Below, one piece after another: positions 1,681 through 47,275 of a DNA stretch of 64,000 nt (position 1 is the first letter of the stretch; each line of letters opens with the position of its first letter). The stretch covers positions 195 to 64,194 of the forward strand of contig JBEKBX010000017.1 in NCBI GenBank assembly GCA_050015175.1, given 5' to 3'. Origin of the DNA: Acidimicrobiales bacterium (GTDB lineage: Bacteria; Actinomycetota; Acidimicrobiia; Acidimicrobiales; Bog-793). The position numbers and the translations under genes are program-made. The notes under the pieces are model-generated. The model was not told the DNA's origin and did not search any database. It was given only the letters and a program-made list of their open reading frames with translations.

Positions 1681-4196
1681 GGGTCTCGATGGCCGCGCCG
1701 CGTGGCGAGGCTCGTTCCGCCCTTGGCCTCACGCCATCTCGGCGCGCCGTTGTTCGATGGGCATGGCGCTTGTTCCGCCGCGAGTGGCGCCAACAAATAC
1801 TTGTCCTCGCACTGATCATCGTGGCCGTCACCGCGACGGTCGTCGGCTCGGCGGTGGCGACCAACACGCCCCTTCCGGCGAATACGGGGTTTGGCACCGC
1901 CCAGGACATGGCCACCTTCGCCGGGAATGACCCCCGTCTCGCCGCCGAGATCGCCTCGTTGGAGCACCGCTTCGGCAAGGTCGACGTCATCGAGAACGAG
2001 ACGCTGAAAGTCCCCGGTTCTGTCGCTACCTACCAGCTACGGGCTCAGAACCCGAACGGCCCCTACGGCCAACCGACGCTCTCCCTCATCTCGGGTCACT
2101 ACCCGAGTTCAACGGACCAGGTCGCCGTCACGGCCGGAATCGCATCGGATTTCAACTTGAAGGTCGGAGACACCTGGAAAGTCGGAGGCGAAGTCAGGCG
2201 GGTGGTTGGCATCGTCGAGAACCCACAGAATCTCCTCGACGAGTTCGCCCTCGTTCTGCCTGGACGGGTGAAGTCCGCGAACGACGTCACCGTGCTCTTC
2301 GACGCACCGGGGGTGAGTCCGAGCTCGATCGGCGAGCAGTGTGCCGCCTGCGGCCCATACGGCCGCCCCGGCTCCAATGTGGCCACGCCAGCCTTGGTGG
2401 CGCTGAGCACGATCAACCCCGAGACCCTGTCTCTTGCGGTGCTCACGATCGGGATGCTCCTCATCGCGCTGATGGCTATCGGCGGCTTCACCGTGCTCGC
2501 TCAGCGGCGGCAGCGCTCGCTCGGCATGCTGGCCTCGATCGGGGCTACCAGTAAGAACGTCTCCCTCGTCGTGCGGGCGAACGGACTTGTCGTGGGCGTC
2601 CTCGGGGCGGTGATCGGGACCCTTTTGGGCCTTGTCCTCTGGTTCGCCTATCGACCGAGCCTTGAGCAGAGCTCTCACCATCTGATCGGAGTCCTCGCCC
2701 TGCCCTGGGTCGTCGTCGCCGCGGCCATCGTGCTCGCCATTGTCGCGACGTACCTGGCCGCCTTGCGACCCGCTCGTTCGGTCACGAGGCTCTCTGTCAT
2801 GACCGCCCTGTCCGGTCGTCCCGCCCCACCAAGACAGGTGCACCGGTCTGCGCTACCCGGGATCGCCTTTCTCGTCGTCGCATTCCTCGTACTCGGCTAC
2901 TCGGGCAGCACTGACCACGGGACGGGCGGTGCGAGCACACTCGCGCTCGTCGTAGGGATCGTCGCCCTCATTCCCGCGATCATCCTGTTGGCGCCCTTCC
3001 TCCTCGTCGGGCTCGGGCGACTCGCCCGTCGCACCCCGGTTGCCGTCCGGCTCGCGCTCCGTGACCTCGCTCGCTACAGGGCTCGCTCTGCCTCTGCTCT
3101 AGCCGCGATCGGCCTCGGAGTGATGATCGCGGTGATGATCGCCACGCTTGCCCAGGCCCGATACTCCGATATCTGGGACCCCGCGGGGCCGAACCTGGCC
3201 TCGAACCAGGCGAACATCTCGATGGGAGTTCCGTACCCCACCCCGAGACAGGTGAGCGCCTGGGCCAAGGTCTCAGATGGTGTCGGCACAGCACTCGGAG
3301 CGCACCAAGTCGCGGCGCTCGAGGTGACCAGTGCCGGTCTCGGGAACATCTCCGGGACGAAGTCCCTTGGCGAATCGGTCTACGTCGCCACCCCACAGCT
3401 CCTGCAGGCGTTGGGCGTCTCCTCCTCCGAGATCGAGCCGAACGCCGAGATCGTGACGGCGCTTCCCGGTTTGACAGGCGATTCGGGTCTCGCGCTCAAC
3501 TGGTGCGAGAAGATGATCCCGCAAGGCCCGCCCGGCAGCGGGAACTTCAACTGCGCGAAGAACGGCGTGTTGAACAACCCGGTGATCCAGGGGCTTGGCG
3601 CACTACCGAGCGGGATTCACGCACCGAACACGTTGATCACCGAGCGTGCCGTCCGCGCATTCCACCTTGCGCCCTCGATCTCGGTGCTTGGGTGGTTCGT
3701 CGAGGGCGCCGAACCGCTCACCGCGGCAGAGATCCACAACGCGCAGGCAGTCGCGGCAACGGCGAACTTGAGCATCGAGACCAGGAATGACGAACCGACC
3801 TCTTCGACAGTCATCAACTGGGCCACGTTCTTCGGCGTCGCGCTGGCGCTTTGCATCCTGGCCATGAGCGTCGGACTGATCCGCAGCGAGACTGCCAACG
3901 ACCTACGGACCCTCGCCGCAACCGGAGCGAGCAGCTACACCCGTCGGACGCTGAGCGCCGCCACCGCCGGCGCGCTCGGGCTGGCCGGGGCGGTCCTCGG
4001 CACGTTCGCCGGCTACGTCGGTGTCATCGGCTGGTTGCGCGGCGACTCCGTGAACGGTGGCATCTCCGCGCTCGGAAACGTGCCCGTCGCAAATCTGTTG
4101 GTGATTCTCCTTGGCCTGCCGGTCCTGGCGGCTGCGGTCGGATGGTTGCTCGCCGGCCGTCAGCCGCCCATGCTCGCGCGCCAACCCATCGAGTGA
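1677..4196 (+). CDS. FtsX/MacB-like ABC permease (two FtsX TM units)
   Basis: Start at the ATGA overlap (1677). Two FtsX-type segments (AQRRQRSLGMLASIGAT; RSETANDLRTLAATGAS) with multiple TM helices. Confidence 0.9.
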   Translation: MRVSMAAPRGEARSALGLTPSRRAVVRWAWRLFRREWRQQILVLALIIVAVTATVVGSAVATNTPLPANTGFGTAQDMATFAGNDPRLAAEIASLEHRFGKVDVIENETLKVPGSVATYQLRAQNPNGPYGQPTLSLISGHYPSSTDQVAVTAGIASDFNLKVGDTWKVGGEVRRVVGIVENPQNLLDEFALVLPGRVKSANDVTVLFDAPGVSPSSIGEQCAACGPYGRPGSNVATPALVALSTINPETLSLAVLTIGMLLIALMAIGGFTVLAQRRQRSLGMLASIGATSKNVSLVVRANGLVVGVLGAVIGTLLGLVLWFAYRPSLEQSSHHLIGVLALPWVVVAAAIVLAIVATYLAALRPARSVTRLSVMTALSGRPAPPRQVHRSALPGIAFLVVAFLVLGYSGSTDHGTGGASTLALVVGIVALIPAIILLAPFLLVGLGRLARRTPVAVRLALRDLARYRARSASALAAIGLGVMIAVMIATLAQARYSDIWDPAGPNLASNQANISMGVPYPTPRQVSAWAKVSDGVGTALGAHQVAALEVTSAGLGNISGTKSLGESVYVATPQLLQALGVSSSEIEPNAEIVTALPGLTGDSGLALNWCEKMIPQGPPGSGNFNCAKNGVLNNPVIQGLGALPSGIHAPNTLITERAVRAFHLAPSISVLGWFVEGAEPLTAAEIHNAQAVAATANLSIETRNDEPTSSTVINWATFFGVALALCILAMSVGLIRSETANDLRTLAATGASSYTRRTLSAATAGALGLAGAVLGTFAGYVGVIGWLRGDSVNGGISALGNVPVANLLVILLGLPVLAAAVGWLLAGRQPPMLARQPIE

Positions 4197-41557: not shown

Positions 41558-42013
41558 CTATTCGCGGCACTCCGGACACAGGCCCAGCAGGTCGAGTTGG
41601 TGCTCGGTCACCTGGTAACCCTGCTCCTCGGCCACCGCTCGCGCCGCCTCGCCGAGCGCCCGTTCCAACTTCGGTGAGGGGTGGACGTCCTCCACCTTTC
41701 CGCACGTCGCGCAGACAAAATGGTGATGGTGGCTCGAGAGCTCCTCGGCCAGCTCGAAGCGACCGTGATCGTCGGCGCCTACGACCCTGCGGACGACGCC
41801 GACGTCGATGAGGGCGGTCATGTTGCGATAGGCGCTGCTCTGGGGGAGCTCTGGGGCTGACGCGACGATCTCGGGGATGGTCAGAGGCCTCCCGGCCACC
41901 GCCAATGTCTCGACCAGGATCCTGCGCAAATGCGTGTATCGCTGGTCCACACCGGCCAGCCGGAGGCTCACGGCTTCATGGATCGAGCGTGCGATCACCA
42001 CCGCCGGAGACAT
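41558..42013 (-). CDS. Fur-family metalloregulator (Zur-like)
   Basis: SSAYRNM, HHHHFVCATCGKVEDV, GLCPEC; last gene of the metal ABC operon. Confidence 0.9.
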   Translation of the reverse strand: MSPAVVIARSIHEAVSLRLAGVDQRYTHLRRILVETLAVAGRPLTIPEIVASAPELPQSSAYRNMTALIDVGVVRRVVGADDHGRFELAEELSSHHHHFVCATCGKVEDVHPSPKLERALGEAARAVAEEQGYQVTEHQLDLLGLCPECRE

Positions 42014-42885
42014 TAGGTCCGCTCACCGCCCGTTCCGGTGGCCGTCGCGAGCTGTACCGGGCCTGTCGCCACGTGCTCGGCGTCATCCGCGCGCCCGGCC
42101 GACCTGCGCCACGCGACCCAGCCGCGCCCGGCAATGAAGAAGACCGCGCCGAGGACGCCGACGAAGAACCCGACCGGCCAATTGGTCGCGTATGACGCTG
42201 CAATGGCTATCCAGACGATGGCCATCGAGATGCCGACCGAAAGACAAAGCGCTCCGAGCGGCTTGTCCGTGAACGACCGAGCGGCACCGGGAGCGCCGAC
42301 CATCAGGCTGAACATCAAAAGGGCCCCGACAACTGGCACCGACATGGTCGTCACCAGCGCCACCACCACCAGGAAGCACATTTCCATCCGGTGGGTCCGC
42401 ACGCCACGAGCCTCTGCCACCTCCGGCATCACCGACGCGAGGAGCAGCGGGCGGTACAGGATCACGACTGCGGAGATGCACACGACACCGAGCACCGCAG
42501 TCGCGAGCACCTCATTGGAGCTGACCCCGAGCACCTCGCCGAAGAGCAACGCGTAGGTCGCTGACGCGTACTCCTCACTCCAGCTCAGGAACAGTGCCCC
42601 GAGACCCAGCATGAACACGAGCGCTAGCGCCGTCACCGCGTCATGACGGCCACGCTTGCCCAACAGGCCTATGGAAAGCGCGCTTATGACAGCGAAAGTT
42701 CCCAGCCCCGCGAGAGTGCTGACGCCGATGAGGGCGGCGCCGGCGGCTCCCGCGAAGCCGGCTTGCGGGACCGCGTGGGCAACGAAGGCCGAGCCTCGCA
42801 GCACCGTGAAGAACCCCACGACGCCCGCGACGACTGCGACCATCGTGGCGACGATCCAGGCATTGGCCATGAACCCCGAGAACAT
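42013..42885 (-). CDS. Zn/Mn ABC permease (ABC-3 family)
   Basis: MFSGFMANAW...AFVAHAVPQAGFAG, LLFGEVL, VPVVGALLMFSLMVGAP; TGATG coupling at 42885. Confidence 0.9.
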   Translation of the reverse strand: MFSGFMANAWIVATMVAVVAGVVGFFTVLRGSAFVAHAVPQAGFAGAAGAALIGVSTLAGLGTFAVISALSIGLLGKRGRHDAVTALALVFMLGLGALFLSWSEEYASATYALLFGEVLGVSSNEVLATAVLGVVCISAVVILYRPLLLASVMPEVAEARGVRTHRMEMCFLVVVALVTTMSVPVVGALLMFSLMVGAPGAARSFTDKPLGALCLSVGISMAIVWIAIAASYATNWPVGFFVGVLGAVFFIAGRGWVAWRRSAGRADDAEHVATGPVQLATATGTGGERT

Positions 42886-43844
42886 CAGCCTGCTCCCATC
42901 GCCGGGGACTCGGACGGCCGGGCGCGCCCGGACAGGCCTTTGCTGGCGGCGAGTGCCCGCGCCCCGGCTCGTCGCTCCTTGTTCCGGCTGGCGAGGTCGG
43001 CCAGCAGGTAGACGACGAGGATCAAGGCCACGACGAAGAAGCTCACCGGCCAGCCCCGTCCCGTCGGCGGCCAGTAGTAGCTGTCGTAGGCGAGCAGGAT
43101 GCCGAGCCATGTCACCGCCAGCCCTATGACCACGGCCCAGGCGATCGCCAAGCCGGGCCGCTTCGTCAACCGCAACGCCGCGGCAGCAGGGCCGATCAAC
43201 ACCGCGGTGCTGAGGATCGCCCCGATGGTCACACAGGAAAGCGACACCGCGACCGCCATCGCGAGCAGGTACAGAACGCCCACAACACGCACGGGCACGC
43301 CCCTCGCATGAGCAATGTCCTCGCTCACGGCGCTCAACAGCAGCGGACGGTAGAGCAAGGCGACGATGGCGAGCGCAAGAACGCTCAACAACGCGAAGAC
43401 CGGGATCATCGACGCACGGATGACGAACATGGAGCCGAACAGGATCGTGACGGTCGCGCCGGTCGTACTGCTCTCCGTCGTGCCCAGGTACAAGAACAAC
43501 GCTGCGATCCCGAGGCCCGCGCCCAGCACGATCCCCGTTGCCATGTCCCTTGCACGTGGCCGGCGGGTCCCGAAAAGCTCCATGGCCCCGGCTCCGAGGA
43601 TCGCGAAGACGACAAAACCCCAAAGCGGGTTGGCTCTGACCAAAAATGCGCCCGAACCACCCGTCGTGCCCAGGTCTCCCAGGGAATGGCCGGCAAAGGA
43701 CTGGCCGCGGATGACCGTGAAAACGCCCACCACGGCGGACACGAGCGCGACGGCGCCGCCCACCACGACAGCCACGCGAACCGGTTCGCTCGCGAAAAAA
43801 CCGGGTTCGAAGACGCCGTTGAGAATGGCGCTCATCCCGGTCAC
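42885..43844 (-). CDS. Zn/Mn ABC permease (ABC-3 family)
   Basis: GQSFAGHSLGD, ILFGS, GAILSTAVLIGPAAAA. Confidence 0.9.
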   Translation of the reverse strand: MTGMSAILNGVFEPGFFASEPVRVAVVVGGAVALVSAVVGVFTVIRGQSFAGHSLGDLGTTGGSGAFLVRANPLWGFVVFAILGAGAMELFGTRRPRARDMATGIVLGAGLGIAALFLYLGTTESSTTGATVTILFGSMFVIRASMIPVFALLSVLALAIVALLYRPLLLSAVSEDIAHARGVPVRVVGVLYLLAMAVAVSLSCVTIGAILSTAVLIGPAAAALRLTKRPGLAIAWAVVIGLAVTWLGILLAYDSYYWPPTGRGWPVSFFVVALILVVYLLADLASRNKERRAGARALAASKGLSGRARPSESPAMGAG

Positions 43845-44692
43845 CCAAGCCCACGAGGCGCGACGGTGTGCGCGCTCTCGGGCTCGGCGTGGTGGACTTC
43901 GTCCTTTCCCGCGACGACCAGGATGCGACCGTGAACGTGCAACACGTCGACGTGGTGGCCGTACAAAGCGCTGAGCACGTCTTCGCGGACGACCTCCTCG
44001 GTCGATCCGCTCGCGGCACGGCCGGACGCGACGTAGACGACACGGTCCATCACCGGCAGCAGCGGGTTCATCTCGTGCGCTGAGATGAGAACCGCGATCT
44101 GCTGCTCCTTCGCTATCCTTCCCAGGAGCCCGACGACCTCCTGCTCGCTGCGGATGTCCAGGTTTGCCAGTGGCTCGTCCAAGAGCAGCAGCCTCGGCTT
44201 GGCAATGAGCGCATGCGCGATCAGCGTCCGCTGCAGCTCACCGCCCGAGAGCTTGCCGACGCGGGATTCGGCGAAGCCTTGAGCATCGACGGCCTCGAGC
44301 ATCTCGTCGACCAGCTGTCGGCGGCTCCGCGTGGGAAACGGAATGCCGAATCGGTCGCCATCGAGCCCGAGAGCCACCAGGTCCCGTGCGCGCAAGGGCA
44401 TGTCCGGGTCGAGACTGAGGCTCTGTGGCACGTAACCGATGGACCGGTTGCGGCGCGCACGTGGATGGCCTGCGAAGAGCACGCTGCCTGCCGAGGGTGT
44501 CTCCAGGCCGAGGATCACCCTGAATATGGTCGTCTTGCCGGCGCCGTTGGACCCGATGAGACCGGTGAGCTCGCCGGCATGGAGGCGGAAGCCGACATCG
44601 TGGAGGATCTCCCGGCCGGACAGCCAGAGCGAAACGCCGTCGAGCGAGAGGATCTCCCCCCGACCGGCGCCGGGCGGGAAAGGCTCGTTCAC
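43841..44692 (-). CDS. Zn/Mn ABC ATP-binding protein
   Basis: GSNGAGKTT, LSGGELQR, LLLDEP; GTGA overlap with the SBP stop. Confidence 0.92.
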   Translation of the reverse strand: MNEPFPPGAGRGEILSLDGVSLWLSGREILHDVGFRLHAGELTGLIGSNGAGKTTIFRVILGLETPSAGSVLFAGHPRARRNRSIGYVPQSLSLDPDMPLRARDLVALGLDGDRFGIPFPTRSRRQLVDEMLEAVDAQGFAESRVGKLSGGELQRTLIAHALIAKPRLLLLDEPLANLDIRSEQEVVGLLGRIAKEQQIAVLISAHEMNPLLPVMDRVVYVASGRAASGSTEEVVREDVLSALYGHHVDVLHVHGRILVVAGKDEVHHAEPESAHTVAPRGLG

Positions 44693-45630
44693 AGGTGCTC
44701 CGTCGAGACCTTGTCCGTCACTGCCTTCTCGAGTGCGCGCACCTCGGCCAGCATCCACGTCTGGTAGTCGTAACCGGGCGTGGGCATCGTCTCGTAAACG
44801 CCGACGACCGGTATGCCGTTCTTCTTGGCAAGCGCGAGGAAAGACTGGGTGATCGAGTCGGTCACCTGCTCGTTGTAAAGGAACACGTCGACCTTGTGCC
44901 CTGTGAACAAGCTGTCTTGAGCGGTGATGTCCTCAGGCGCCGGGTCCACGCCGTTCATGATGTCCGCCTGCAATGCCCAAGGAGTCTCGTTCTTGGTGCC
45001 CGCAGCCTCCAGCATGTAGTCGGCGACCGGCTCGGTGGTGGCCACCGGGACGTTCGGATGGCCGGCCTTGAAACTCGCGATCGCCCGCAGCCAAGGGTCG
45101 AGGGAATCGTCGAATCTCGCCAGGTTGGCCCGGAAGTAGGAGGCGTGCGCTGGATCGATCGCGGACAGGTCTCGGCTTATCGCCTTGGCCACCGCAGGCA
45201 TCGTGCGCGGGTCGTACCAAAGGTGCGGGTTCCGCGTGCTGCCGGGAAAGCCCAGCGTCTTCTGGACGTCAATGACCTTCCGCTTCGGGTTCGGCGACGC
45301 GGCCTCGATCGTGCCCATGAAGCTGTCGTAGCCGACACCGTTCTGGACGACCAGCTGGGCGGCGCTGATCTCGGAGGCCACCGACGGACTTGCCTCGAAC
45401 GTGTGAGGGTCGGTGTTGGGGTTGCTCAGGATCGCCGTCACCTTGACATACCTGCCGCCGATCTGGCTGATTAGGTTCGCGTACTCGTTCTCCGCCCCTA
45501 CGGCCACTGTGACACCTCCGCCACGAACGGCTGGGCTCGAGCAGGCGGACACGAGCATCGCCACAGCGACGCAGAGCAAGGCGGCAACCGCCCGGTTGCC
45601 GCCTCGAAGAACCTGAAAATGAACCGTCAT
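44689..45630 (-). CDS. Zn/Mn ABC substrate-binding lipoprotein (ZnuA/MntC family)
   Basis: Lipobox VSA-C; DPHTFE, NPHLWYDP, VYETMP. Confidence 0.92.
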   Translation of the reverse strand: MTVHFQVLRGGNRAVAALLCVAVAMLVSACSSPAVRGGGVTVAVGAENEYANLISQIGGRYVKVTAILSNPNTDPHTFEASPSVASEISAAQLVVQNGVGYDSFMGTIEAASPNPKRKVIDVQKTLGFPGSTRNPHLWYDPRTMPAVAKAISRDLSAIDPAHASYFRANLARFDDSLDPWLRAIASFKAGHPNVPVATTEPVADYMLEAAGTKNETPWALQADIMNGVDPAPEDITAQDSLFTGHKVDVFLYNEQVTDSITQSFLALAKKNGIPVVGVYETMPTPGYDYQTWMLAEVRALEKAVTDKVSTEHL

Positions 45631-45708: not shown

Positions 45709-45968
45709 CCCCTCAGGCACTCTTCGCGTCGAGGAGTCGCAGGGGCTCTCCGCGGGCAAAGGGCGCTCCGATGACGATGATGACGGCGTGCAAGGCCCAT
45801 CCGTGCGACGGTTGAGCGCAAGTCATCCGCCGGTCGATCTCTATTCAGGAAACGGGTCCTGGAGACTCGCATGCCCTCTCGGAATTCTGCTGTTTCTCCT
45901 TGGTTGTAAGGGTCGCCCGAACGAACGAGCCCAGCTGACCTGCGGCGACAGCCGCTATAGTCGGCTCA

Positions 45969-46027
45969 GGCGCGATGAGGCCCGCTCCTTGAATCGTCGG
46001 ACACCGGTTCGACTGATGGCTTCTACC
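45969..46027 (+). ncRNA. Fluoride riboswitch (crcB motif) aptamer
   Basis: GGCGCGATGAGGCCCGCTCC...GTCGGAC-accg-GTTCGAC-TGATGGCTTCTAC. P1 GCG/CGC (plus GG/CC), P2 45996-46002/46007-46013, pseudoknot GAGGCC (45977-82)/GGCTTC (46018-23), conserved ATGAGG and CTGATG; -10 TATAGT at 45956-45961. Confidence 0.93.
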
Positions 46028-46090
46028 AGCTAGGACGGACGCTGGTAGGGCTCTTGCGTACCCCTGTCAGCCGAACAGGGAGTACGGATG
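46023..46090 (+). promoter_or_regulatory. Riboswitch expression platform (translational ON switch)
   Basis: CTACCAGC (46023-30)/GCTGGTAG (46041-48) stem. SD-sequestering CCCTGT (46062-67)/ACAGGG (46075-80). Alternative helix GCTGGTAGGG (46041-50)/CCCTGTCAGC (46062-71). Confidence 0.8.
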
Positions 46091-47275
46091 AACTCGTATT
46101 ACGTCTTTGCCATCTGGATCTCCATGGCGTTGCTGGCGTCGGTGATCAGCGTCAGGTTCGGGGTCTCGGTCGCTCTCGTCGAGATCCTCGTCGGCGCGGT
46201 TCTCGGCAACATCCCGGGCCTCAAGGAACACATCCAGCAGACTGATGTCACGACGTTCCTCGCGGGTGCGGGGTCGTTGATGCTGACCTTTCTCGCAGGC
46301 GCCGAGATCGATCCGGTTTCCCTGCGAAAACATTGGAAGCCGAGCTTGGCGATCGGCGCCGTGTCCTTCCTGTTGCCCTTCCTCGGGGCCTTCGGTTTCT
46401 GCAAGCTCGTGCTCGACTGGCCGCTTCACGGTGCGGAGATCGGCGGGGTGGCGCTGAGCACGACGTCGGTCGCCGTGGTGTACGCAGTCATGATCGAGAC
46501 AGGGCTCAACCGCGAGGATCTCGGCAAGCTCATCCTGGCGGCCTGCTTCGTGACCGACCTCGGCACTGTGCTGGCTCTCGGCGGGCTGTTCGCCACCTAT
46601 GGCTTGCTCCTTCTCGTGTTCGTGGCGGTGACGGTCGCCACCTTGTTGGTCCTGCCGAGAGCGACACGCTATGTGGTCGACCACACCGGCCACCGTGTGA
46701 GCGAGCCGGAGGTGAAGTTCCTTCTCGTCGTGCTGTTCGCGCTCGGCGGCCTCGCGACCGCGGCCGGAAGCGAAGCGGTCCTGCCGGCGTATCTGGCCGG
46801 CCTGGTCGTAGCCGGGGCCTTCATGAACGACCGGGTGCTGATGGACAGGATCCGTTCTATCGCCTTCGCGCTGTTGACACCTTTCTTCTTCTTGCATGCC
46901 GGCCTCTTGATCTCCGCGCCCACGCTCGCGTCGGGGGCGGGCGTGATCGCGTTGTTGTTCGGCGTGAAGATGGCAGCCAAGCTGCTCGGCGTCTGGCCGA
47001 CCGCGTCGGCACTGAGGATCCCCAAGCGCGAGCGCACGTACATGACGCTTCTCATGGCAACCGGCCTCACGTTCGGGTCCATCTCCGCGCTCTTCGGTTT
47101 GACGCACCACCTCATCGACAGGACCCAGTACACAGAGCTCGTGACGGTGGTGCTGCTTTCTGCTCTGCTGCCGACACTCGTCGCCCAGCAATTGTTCCGG
47201 CCCGAATTGCCGACCGAGCGGGACGAGCTCGAGGCGCTCGGCGAAGAGGACCTGTCGCTGCGCCCGCCCCGTTGA
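46088..47275 (+). CDS. Cation:proton antiporter (CPA / Na_H_Exchanger family), fluoride-riboswitch controlled
   Basis: ~12 TM; FLAGAEID, LSTTSVAVV, ILAACFVTDLGTV, TPFFFLHAG, KLLG. Confidence 0.88.
   Translation: MNSYYVFAIWISMALLASVISVRFGVSVALVEILVGAVLGNIPGLKEHIQQTDVTTFLAGAGSLMLTFLAGAEIDPVSLRKHWKPSLAIGAVSFLLPFLGAFGFCKLVLDWPLHGAEIGGVALSTTSVAVVYAVMIETGLNREDLGKLILAACFVTDLGTVLALGGLFATYGLLLLVFVAVTVATLLVLPRATRYVVDHTGHRVSEPEVKFLLVVLFALGGLATAAGSEAVLPAYLAGLVVAGAFMNDRVLMDRIRSIAFALLTPFFFLHAGLLISAPTLASGAGVIALLFGVKMAAKLLGVWPTASALRIPKRERTYMTLLMATGLTFGSISALFGLTHHLIDRTQYTELVTVVLLSALLPTLVAQQLFRPELPTERDELEALGEEDLSLRPPR

What the first reader, a model, noticed from the sequence alone, without database searches (positions are those of the whole stretch)
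45956..47275. Fluoride riboswitch with a readable ON-switch driving a CPA-family antiporter: candidate non-CrcB/non-CLC fluoride-resistance transporter
Seen: a full crcB-motif aptamer (P1, P2, GAGGCC/GGCUUC pseudoknot, conserved AUGAGG and CUGAUG...CUAC) just after a TATAGT -10. The switching logic is complete. OFF: the aptamer tail CUACCAGC pairs with GCUGGUAG, so CCCUGU sequesters ACAGGG of the SD (AGGGAG, 46077-82). ON: the ligand-locked aptamer frees GCUGGUAGGG to form a 10-bp helix with CCCUGUCAGC, exposing the SD for ATG 46088. Established: fluoride riboswitches turn on fluoride-defence genes, chiefly Fluc/CrcB channels and CLC-F antiporters. Genes annotated Na+/H+ antiporter are among reported associations, but I know of no established transport role for them. 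Inference: this antiporter exports F-, or counters the H+/cation load from HF influx, which matters in acidic habitats. The sole regulated gene here is the antiporter.
Basis: partly seen in the sequence, partly recalled or inferred. Interest (0 to 1): 0.85.

Follow-up and report, generated by a model that had tools for sequence, protein, structure and literature searches.

The report
Fluoride riboswitch driving a cation/proton antiporter
A genuine fluoride-sensing RNA switch sits in front of an ion-exchanger gene in a peat-soil actinobacterium; the pairing has been known since 2010-2012, but this exchanger family is almost always wired to the switch, its role is still untested, and this bacterium has no known fluoride exporter.

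Summary
Window 45968-46026 (+) is a fluoride (crcB-motif) aptamer. It scores only 23.9 bits against Rfam RF01734 (cut-off 34). However, the leader is conserved from the -10 box to the start codon in 10 genomes of the genus. In 55 distinct aptamers upstream of the same gene family, P1 pairs 100% and the pseudoknot 96.7%, with perfect A-U/G-C covariation at the position that makes our copy score low.

The gene (46088-47275) is a monocistronic, 395-aa, NapA/KefC-fold antiporter. It keeps D157 and K298 but has T/N where NapA has its first Asp.

In the 80 best family loci from many phyla, all but one of the 79 with upstream sequence carry an upstream fluoride aptamer or near-variant. crcB lies beside the gene in 20 of them.

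The three-helix ON relay is conserved and complementary, but only a kinetic (co-transcriptional) version works in folding calculations.

The riboswitch-antiporter association is published (Weinberg 2010; Baker 2012). The assembly has no CrcB and no CLC, as in most of its genus.

Fluoride export by the antiporter is neither supported nor excluded. Cation/H+ exchange that blunts pH-gradient-driven fluoride accumulation is more likely.

The parts
45956..45961 (+). -10 promoter box TATAGT
   Evidence: Sequence confirmed. GCTATAGT is conserved in 8 of 10 genus leaders, while the sequence further upstream diverges. The sigma-70 consensus scan did not call it because there is no -35 match, so the promoter role is an inference.
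45968..46026 (+). Fluoride (crcB-motif) aptamer: P1 45970-74/45983-88, pseudoknot 45977-82 with 46018-23, P2 45996-46002/46007-13, CUGAUG 46013-18, conserved UAC 46024-26
   Evidence: RF01734 at 23.9 bits, E 1.6e-4, full model length. Helices all paired in 13 related leaders. Pseudoknot and P1 covary in 55 family aptamers.
46021..46030 (+). Segment T: 3' pseudoknot strand plus tail (UUCUACCAGC), which pairs with A1 when no ligand is bound
   Evidence: 10-bp helix with A1, -13.6 kcal/mol. It is in the RNAalifold consensus of 13 leaders.
46041..46050 (+). Segment A1 (GCUGGUAGGG): partner of T (OFF) or of A2 (ON)
   Evidence: A1:A2 is 10 bp, -12.7 kcal/mol. It is 98.5% paired over 13 leaders, with one GC-to-AU double change.
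46058..46071 (+). Segment A2: 5' arm of the SD-sequestering hairpin (GUACCCCUGU, 46058-67), overlapping the A1-complementary stretch CCCUGUCAGC (46062-71)
   Evidence: The CAGC that is loop in the OFF hairpin is nearly invariant, as expected if it pairs with A1.
46075..46085 (+). 3' arm of the SD hairpin (ACAGGGAGUAC), containing the Shine-Dalgarno GGGAG at 46078-82
   Evidence: Hairpin energy -13.9 kcal/mol. Compensatory changes at two stem pairs (UA/CG/UG and GC/AU).
46088..47275 (+). Gene for a 395-aa T/N-D-type CPA2-like cation:proton antiporter (no KTN/RCK domain)
   Evidence: PF00999 E 1.7e-39. TIGR00932 at 110 bits, below its cut-off. AF2 model pLDDT 86, with broken helices at 124-127 and 324-327. 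Foldseek match to NapA, TM 0.78. T156-D157 and K298 align with NapA D156-D157 and K305.

Best explanation
Transcription starts a few bases after the TATAGT box. The first ~60 nt fold into a fluoride riboswitch aptamer of the GAUGAGGCC...GGCUUCUAC variant type.

Without fluoride, the 3' pseudoknot strand and tail (T) pair with A1. That leaves A2 free to close a 10-bp hairpin over the Shine-Dalgarno sequence, so translation of the antiporter is off.

With fluoride bound (as a Mg-F complex), T is held in the aptamer. A1 then pairs with A2 as soon as A2 is transcribed, and the SD emerges unpaired. That state is kinetically trapped long enough for ribosomes to load, so this is a translational ON switch.

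The product is a NapA/KefC-fold monovalent cation:proton antiporter of a distinct T/N-D subfamily, which is wired to fluoride riboswitches almost everywhere it occurs. It most likely exchanges K+ or Na+ for H+. That would lower the transmembrane pH gradient that drives HF entry and fluoride trapping in acid habitats. Where a Fluc channel is present, it would also shift the proton-motive force toward membrane potential, which drives fluoride out through Fluc. It probably does not carry fluoride itself.

Shown: the aptamer, the complementarities, conservation and covariation, the fold, the site residues, the genomic associations, and the absence of crcB and CLC.

Inferred: ligand binding, ON polarity, the kinetic relay, the transported ions and their direction.
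For: Aptamer. Family loci in other phyla pass the Rfam cut-off.

Switch:
- T:A1 -13.6, A1:A2 -12.7 and A2:SD -13.9 kcal/mol.
- The alifold consensus shows T:A1 plus the SD hairpin, with compensatory changes.
- A1:A2 is 98.5% paired, with one double change.
- With nt 1-57 locked, A1:A2 is the minimum-energy fold at transcript lengths 103-110. The estimated barrier to the SD hairpin is ~15 kcal/mol.
- Short direct-type leaders of the same family open their SD when the aptamer is locked (0.23 to 0.6 unpaired). Streptosporangiales leaders re-create the same three-segment relay with different sequences.

Protein:
- PF00999; NapA, NHA2, KefC and NhaP are the top structural matches.
- D157, K298 and T126/S127 are invariant and align with the NapA site.
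- There is no regulatory KTN domain.

Fluoride-specific role:
- Of the 79 best family loci with upstream sequence, 45 have RF01734 at or above the cut-off, and all but one of the rest carry variant aptamers.
- crcB lies within 3 kb in 20 of 80 loci.

Physiological frame: weak-acid accumulation and pH homeostasis under fluoride stress; only ~15% of Flucs and ~30% of CLC-Fs are riboswitch-controlled (review PMC11139923).
Against: - The aptamer is 10 bits under the Rfam cut-off.
- Equilibrium folding keeps the SD hairpin closed even with the aptamer locked. If only nt 1-54 are locked, a 7-bp T:A1 helix persists and the switch stays OFF.
- Covariation for A1:A2 rests on essentially one event, in three related sequences.
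- The ion specificity and direction of transport are pure inference.
- A CPA antiporter cannot expel H+ against an inward pH gradient, so the textbook 'counteracts acidification' reading is itself physically doubtful.
- The genome has no known fluoride exporter, which leaves room for a direct export role.
Confidence: 0.62

Rival explanations
1. The antiporter is itself a third kind of fluoride exporter: F- or HF moved by a CPA-fold protein, perhaps coupled to H+ or K+. It would replace Fluc and CLC-F in lineages that lack them.
For: - This assembly has no CrcB and no CLC. 17 of 19 genus genomes lack CrcB, and the genus CLCs are ordinary CBS-type.
- 23 of 50 sampled genomes with the antiporter had no CrcB match over the family cut-off (one more had only a weak sub-cut-off hit). 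15 of the 23 also have no CLC at all, and the CLCs in the rest have no upstream aptamer.
- The family is coupled to the riboswitch almost everywhere it occurs.
- The first Asp of the NapA DD pair is replaced by T/N, and the site is rich in Ser/Thr.
Against: - D157 and K298 of the cation/proton site are invariant.
- All structural neighbours are cation:proton exchangers.
- crcB is co-operonic in 20 of 80 loci and is present in about half of antiporter genomes.
- Within the genus, CrcB is equally rare with the antiporter (1 of 10) and without it (1 of 9), so there is no complementarity.
- Many of the genomes are MAGs of unknown completeness.
Confidence: 0.1
2. It is an ordinary housekeeping Na+(K+)/H+ antiporter for general pH or salt homeostasis, and the upstream element is a decayed or non-functional aptamer relic.
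For: The sub-threshold Rfam score. There is no direct evidence of ligand binding. Some family members (Propionibacteriales) have changed core nucleotides, AGUG for GAUG.
Against: - The leader is conserved base for base across 10 genomes, while flanking DNA is not.
- The pseudoknot shows perfect A-U/G-C covariation.
- The expression platform is conserved.
- Coupling to the riboswitch across phyla is near-universal, which a general homeostasis gene would not show.
Confidence: 0.04
3. The switch acts mainly on transcription or mRNA fate. One route is Rho-dependent termination or decay when the SD is closed. Another is the T:A1 hairpin acting as a terminator. In this reading the A1:A2 relay is not the mechanism.
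For: At equilibrium the SD hairpin wins in both states. Most characterised fluoride riboswitches are terminator-type. Untranslated leaders are classic Rho substrates (general knowledge).
Against: No U-tract follows T:A1, and none is conserved in relatives. The loop CAGC of the SD hairpin is conserved and complementary to A1, which the relay explains and this rival does not.
Confidence: 0.12
4. The antiporter handles another cation whose homeostasis fluoride disturbs (for example NH4+, or a divalent ion bound by fluoride), rather than K+/Na+.
For: The T/N-D plus Lys site is unlike DD (NapA), QD (KefC) or ND/Arg (NhaP) sites. The review notes that fluoride perturbs cation homeostasis.
Against: No positive evidence. 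PF00999 members with solved structures all move monovalent cations.
Confidence: 0.07

Closest known systems
Fluoride riboswitch (crcB motif, Rfam RF01734; Weinberg 2010, Baker 2012)
   Same: P1, P2, the six-pair pseudoknot, the GAUG and CUGAUG...CUAC core, a 5'-UTR position, and a fluoride-regulon gene downstream.
   Different: It scores 23.9 bits, below the cut-off of 34, because of the A-U/G-U pseudoknot variant and insertions. It is translational rather than terminator-type, with a three-segment relay instead of direct SD or terminator competition.
Riboswitch-associated 'Na+/H+ antiporters' / 'K+ transport' genes of the fluoride super-regulon (Weinberg 2010 PMC2864571; Baker 2012 as cited in PMC11139923)
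   Same: Same gene class behind the same RNA. This locus is a member of that already listed association.
   Different: Not described in the papers I could read: the near-universal coupling of this particular subfamily, its T/N-D signature, and hosts without any known exporter. Baker 2012 itself was not available.
NapA of Thermus thermophilus (PDB 4bwz, 5bz2), an electrogenic CPA2 Na+/H+ antiporter
   Same: Best structural match (TM 0.78). 13-TM NhaA fold with discontinuous crossing helices. T126/S127, D157 and K305-equivalent K298 are conserved.
   Different: NapA D156 is T (31), N (5) or C (2) in this family, and NapA E333 is Leu. Sequence identity is about 22%.
KefC of E. coli (PDB 8bxg), a glutathione-gated K+/H+ exchanger that protects by acidifying the cytoplasm
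   Same: Best sequence match among solved structures (E 5e-11). One Asp in the TM5 motif (KefC QD, here TD). A possible analogous role in protective control of the pH gradient (the role is inference).
   Different: No KTN/RCK gating domain and no KefF partner. Control would be at the level of expression, by the riboswitch.
Fluc/CrcB channels and CLC-F F-/H+ antiporters
   Same: Same regulon, and often the same operon as crcB.
   Different: No sequence or fold relation. Both are absent from this genome.

Membership tests
Fluoride riboswitch (RF01734) | Covariance-model score at or above Rfam gathering cut-off (34 bits) | tested here: not met
   23.9 bits, E 1.6e-4 locally; nothing in the gathering scan. 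Related leaders of the same gene family score 27.8-32.8 and 34-57 bits. The cut-off is a curation threshold, not a structural feature. The model cannot credit the covarying pseudoknot.
Fluoride riboswitch (RF01734) | P1 and P2 helices plus the pseudoknot between the P1 loop and the 3' strand, with the conserved GAUG / CUGAUG / CUAC nucleotides | tested here: met
   All present. 100% paired in 13 leaders. Over 55 family aptamers, P1 is 100% and the pseudoknot 96.7% paired, with covariation.
Fluoride riboswitch (RF01734) | Lies in the 5' leader of a gene of the fluoride regulon, with an expression platform overlapping the 3' aptamer strand | tested here: met
   The aptamer (45968-46026) ends 61 nt upstream of the ATG at 46088. 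The T segment overlaps the pseudoknot strand. The gene class is listed in the literature.
Fluoride riboswitch (RF01734) | Selective binding of fluoride (Mg-F) and fluoride-dependent gene activation | not testable with these tools
   Needs in-line probing or reporter assays. RNA-seq look-up was not possible.
Cation:proton antiporter, PF00999 / CPA2 | Pfam Na_H_Exchanger match above cut-off | tested here: met
   136.2 bits against a cut-off of 26.2, residues 13-365.
Cation:proton antiporter, PF00999 / CPA2 | NCBIfam CPA2 subfamily model TIGR00932 above cut-off | tested here: not met
   109.9 bits against a cut-off of 238.3. It is a divergent subfamily.
Cation:proton antiporter, PF00999 / CPA2 | NhaA fold with two discontinuous crossing helices and a TM5 Asp paired with a TM10 Lys/Arg | tested here: met
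   The AF2 model (pLDDT 86) has helix breaks at 124-127 and 324-327. NapA TM-score 0.78. D157 and K298 are invariant and align with NapA D157 and K305.
Cation:proton antiporter, PF00999 / CPA2 | DD motif of electrogenic CPA2 exchangers | tested here: not met
   T156-D157. Across the family, position 156 is T 31, N 5, C 2.
Kef-type gated K+ efflux system | C-terminal KTN/RCK domain (and glutathione gating) | tested here: not met
   395 aa, with no domain beyond PF00999. Weak KefB/KefC equivalog scores.
Known fluoride exporters (Fluc/CrcB, CLC-F) | Homology to PF02537 or to the CLC family with CLC-F signatures | tested here: not met
   The protein matches only PF00999. The genome has no PF02537 or PF00654 match.

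The most novel reading that the evidence does not exclude
The T/N-D CPA2-like antiporters are a third, dedicated class of fluoride-resistance transporter that moves fluoride (or HF) itself. They would be the sole fluoride exporter in lineages such as this peat Acidimicrobiales genus and the Dormibacterota, which carry the riboswitch-antiporter module but neither CrcB nor CLC-F.
Probability: 0.1. Interest if true: 0.85.

Novelty: new member of a known kind. Interest (0 to 1): 0.42.

Why it matters
What the antiporters of the fluoride regulon do has been an open question since 2012. Reviews assign them to 'pH homeostasis' without an assay. This locus is a clean test case: one riboswitch, one gene, and a host with no known exporter. 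The family-level results sharpen the question: near-universal riboswitch coupling, a T/N-D site, frequent operon linkage to crcB, and many hosts without CrcB or CLC-F. If the protein limits fluoride accumulation by controlled collapse of the pH gradient, or carries fluoride itself, that would be a new resistance mechanism. It would bear on acid soils and on engineering microbes to degrade organofluorines. The three-segment relay would also be a useful example of a kinetically controlled translational riboswitch.

Tried and rejected
- The Rfam gathering scan of the whole window found nothing. The match appears only in a local E-value scan.
- The first leader alignment used the wrong strand for three loci. 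It was redone.
- Equilibrium folding with the aptamer locked was expected to open the SD and did not in relay-type leaders.
- T:A1 as an intrinsic terminator is rejected: there is no U-tract, none is conserved, and no terminator was called in the leader.
- My first pseudoknot tally was off by one base and is void. One search is the correct count.
- I considered the genus CLC genes as possible CLC-F. This is rejected: they are ~690 aa with CBS-type tails and GREGP/GGIFGP motifs. CLCs in other CrcB-less hosts have no upstream aptamer.
- Phyletic complementarity between antiporter and CrcB is not seen within the genus (1/10 against 1/9).
- Baker 2012 is not held.
- From memory, the crystallised Thermotoga petrophila aptamer carries the same GAUGAGGCC variant. 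Two text searches for the sequence found nothing, so this stays unverified and is not used as evidence.
Full report
**Observation**

Rfam's gathering scan of the window found nothing. A local scan gives the Fluoride family RF01734 at 45961-46032 over the whole model, but at 23.9 bits against a cut-off of 34 (E 1.6e-4). On this sequence alone the match is suggestive, not proven.

**Comparative evidence for the aptamer**

- The organism is a peat-bog Acidimicrobiales MAG (source names). The assembly is 4.5 Mb, 65.7% GC and 93% complete.
- Orthologues of the gene (87-92% identity) occur in 10 of 19 genomes of the genus.
- Their leaders align from the -10 box through to the start codon with near identity in the helices and variation in the loops. 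The DNA upstream of the -10 box is unrelated.
- A scan of one genome per species found at least 528 genomes that encode a relative. I examined the best 80 loci (52-92% identity), from Actinomycetota, Dormibacterota, Chloroflexota, Gemmatimonadota, Verrucomicrobiota, Bacteroidota, Planctomycetota and others.
- Rfam at its own cut-off finds a Fluoride riboswitch upstream on the gene's strand in 45 of the 60 loci I scanned.
- The Actinomycetota and Dormibacterota loci carry the same GAUGAGGCC...GGCYUCUAC variant as ours. They score 27.8-32.8 bits where I measured them.
- The four apparent exceptions carry recognisable variants or, in one case, only a 3' half. One further locus is cut off at its 5' end and could not be assessed.
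- Over 55 distinct aptamers, P1 is paired in every cell, with GC/CG/UA exchanges. The pseudoknot is paired in 96.7% of cells, against a maximum of 90.9% in 2000 shuffles.
- The pseudoknot position that is A in our copy and G in the consensus is A-U in 34 aptamers and G-C in 21, with no mismatch. A covariance model cannot credit a pseudoknot, so this compensated variant largely accounts for the low score.
- I therefore take the aptamer as real.

**Expression platform**

Four segments matter:

| Segment | Window position | Role |
|---|---|---|
| T | 46021-30 | pseudoknot 3' strand plus tail |
| A1 | 46041-50 | partner of T or of A2 |
| A2 | 46062-71, inside the hairpin arm 46058-67 | partner of A1 or of the SD arm |
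| SD arm | 46075-85 | contains the Shine-Dalgarno sequence |

- The helix energies are close: T:A1 -13.6, A1:A2 -12.7 and A2:SD -13.9 kcal/mol.
- RNAalifold on 13 leaders returns P1, P2, T:A1 and the SD hairpin, with compensatory changes in P2 and in the SD hairpin.
- The A1:A2 helix is paired in 98.5% of cells, against 34-55% when the partner is slid. It has one GC-to-AU double change, in three related sequences.
- The CAGC that forms the loop of the SD hairpin is almost invariant and complementary to A1. The relay explains this.
- Other branches of the family tell the same story. Dormibacterota and some Streptosporangiales leaders pair the aptamer's 3' strand directly with the SD. Longer Streptosporangiales leaders rebuild a three-segment relay from different sequence.
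At equilibrium, locking the aptamer opens the SD in the short direct leaders (unpaired probability 0.23 to about 0.6). It does not do so in ours or in other relay leaders (0.25 to 0.25).
- Prefix folding shows how the relay could still work. If the bound aptamer holds nt 1-57 (through the conserved UAC), A1:A2 is the best fold while the transcript is 103-110 nt long, before the SD arm exists. The estimated barrier from A1:A2 to the SD hairpin is about 15 kcal/mol.
- If only nt 1-54 are held, a 7-bp T:A1 helix survives and the switch stays off.
- The ON state is therefore plausible only as a co-transcriptional, kinetically trapped state.
- No terminator is present in the leader.

**The protein**

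- It matches PF00999. It falls short of the NCBIfam CPA2 model cut-off. It has no KTN domain.
- An AlphaFold model built on 38 homologues (pLDDT 86) shows the broken helices typical of the NhaA fold.
- Foldseek ranks NapA (TM 0.78), NHA2, KefC and NhaP first.
- Profile alignment puts T156-D157 on NapA D156-D157, K298 on NapA K305 and T126/S127 on the same NapA residues. NapA E333 is Leu here.
- Across phyla, D157, K294, K298, the STTS stretch and the TGLTFG stretch are invariant. Position 156 is T in 31 sequences, N in 5 and C in 2.
- The cation/proton machinery is thus retained in a distinct T/N-D form.

**Genomic associations**

- The gene stands alone here, between a divergent ZnuA and a convergent GH15 gene.
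- In 20 of the 80 family loci, crcB lies within 3 kb. It is nearly always on the same strand and directly before or after the antiporter.
- CrcB is present somewhere in 26 of 50 sampled host genomes.
- Of the 23 without any CrcB match (one further genome had only a weak, sub-cut-off hit), 15 have no CLC at all. The CLCs in the others have no upstream aptamer.
- The window's own assembly has no CrcB, confirmed with a maximum-sensitivity search of all open frames, and no CLC.
- In the genus, 17 of 19 genomes lack CrcB, and the CLCs present are ordinary CBS-type.
- Within the genus, CrcB is as rare with the antiporter (1/10) as without it (1/9), so there is no complementarity.
- The genome also has fluoride-aptamer matches in front of a dynamin-like GTPase, an MFS plus MutS-like pair, a complex-I/Hyf-like module, a HIT plus MutS-like pair and a DUF6062-like protein. 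Only the first of these scores over the Rfam cut-off.

**What is known**

- Weinberg et al. 2010 listed K+ and Cl- transport, mutS and formate hydrogenlyase genes behind the crcB motif.
- The 2024 review by Stockbridge and Wackett cites Baker 2012. It states that Na+/H+ antiporters are the next most common riboswitch-associated class after the exporters, and attributes them to pH homeostasis. It also states that only ~15% of Flucs and ~30% of CLC-Fs are riboswitch-controlled.
- I found no paper reporting a transport assay of such an antiporter.
- Earlier notes of this scan reached the same view of the pairing in other genomes. I treated them as leads only.

**Interpretation**

- The pairing is known, and this is a new member with a variant aptamer and a relay-type translational platform.
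- The near-universal coupling of this subfamily to the riboswitch argues that its job is specific to fluoride stress, and that its activity is unwanted otherwise. That fits an exchanger which dissipates ion gradients better than it fits an exporter.
- The retained Asp/Lys site and the frequent operon partnership with crcB point the same way.
- My preferred model is inference. It is K+(Na+)/H+ exchange that lowers the pH gradient, and so lowers weak-acid accumulation of fluoride. Where Fluc exists, it would also raise the membrane potential that drives fluoride out.
- Direct fluoride export remains possible at about one in ten. The main reason is that so many hosts, this one included, have no recognised exporter.

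**Limits**

- There are no binding, expression or transport data.
- Completeness is not known for the MAGs reached through loci.
- The family sample is the best 80 of at least 528 loci.

Noticed in passing
G000 contigs outside the window: C83:5332-5393(+), C65:9309-9390(+), C65:8358-8428(-), C47:4940-5013(-), C47:7030-7082(-): The same genome has five more fluoride-aptamer matches (39.4, 27.2, 20.7, 19.3 and 17 bits; only the first is over the Rfam cut-off). They precede, respectively, a dynamin-like GTPase, an MFS transporter plus two MutS-domain-V proteins, a complex-I/Hyf-like membrane module, a HIT protein plus two MutS-domain-V proteins, and a Cys-rich DUF6062-like protein. This is a large fluoride regulon in a genome with no known exporter. 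The riboswitch-linked MFS is another exporter candidate.
   Followed up: partly
Genus relatives G001-G018: 17 of 19 genomes of the genus lack CrcB, whereas 9 of 12 other families of the order have it. The six genus CLC genes are ~690-aa CBS-type with GREGP/GGIFGP, not CLC-F.
   Followed up: partly
L018/L019 (G008:C21:39341-40526) and L014 (G009:C58): The antiporter orthologue of G008 is split into two frames with an in-frame TGA. That of G009 carries one in-frame TAG. These may be pseudogenes or assembly errors. Their leaders are intact.
   Followed up: no
L046, L048, L049 (Propionibacteriales), about 60-110 nt upstream of the gene start at locus position 3001: These aptamers have AGUG in place of the conserved GAUG, and CCGAUG or CCAAUG in place of CUGAUG, while keeping a perfect GAGGUC/GACCUC pseudoknot. 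They are either a functional variant or a decaying switch. Rfam does not detect them.
   Followed up: no
L053 (849-932 -, 1445-1521 +, 2841-2916 +); L077, L089, L086, L069 (two each): Several family loci carry two or three Rfam-passing fluoride riboswitches within 3 kb. Typically one precedes crcB or another gene and a second lies directly before the antiporter.
   Followed up: no
L045:1371-1434(-) and 2754-2813(-): Two Rfam-passing fluoride riboswitches lie on the opposite strand, upstream of the variant aptamer that drives the antiporter. Divergent fluoride-controlled units share one intergenic region.
   Followed up: no
window 42013-45630 (-): The divergent neighbour is a metal ABC uptake cluster: a ZnuA-type binding protein, and a 676-aa open frame whose C-terminal part is an ABC-3 permease. 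It has no obvious link to the riboswitch unit.
   Followed up: no
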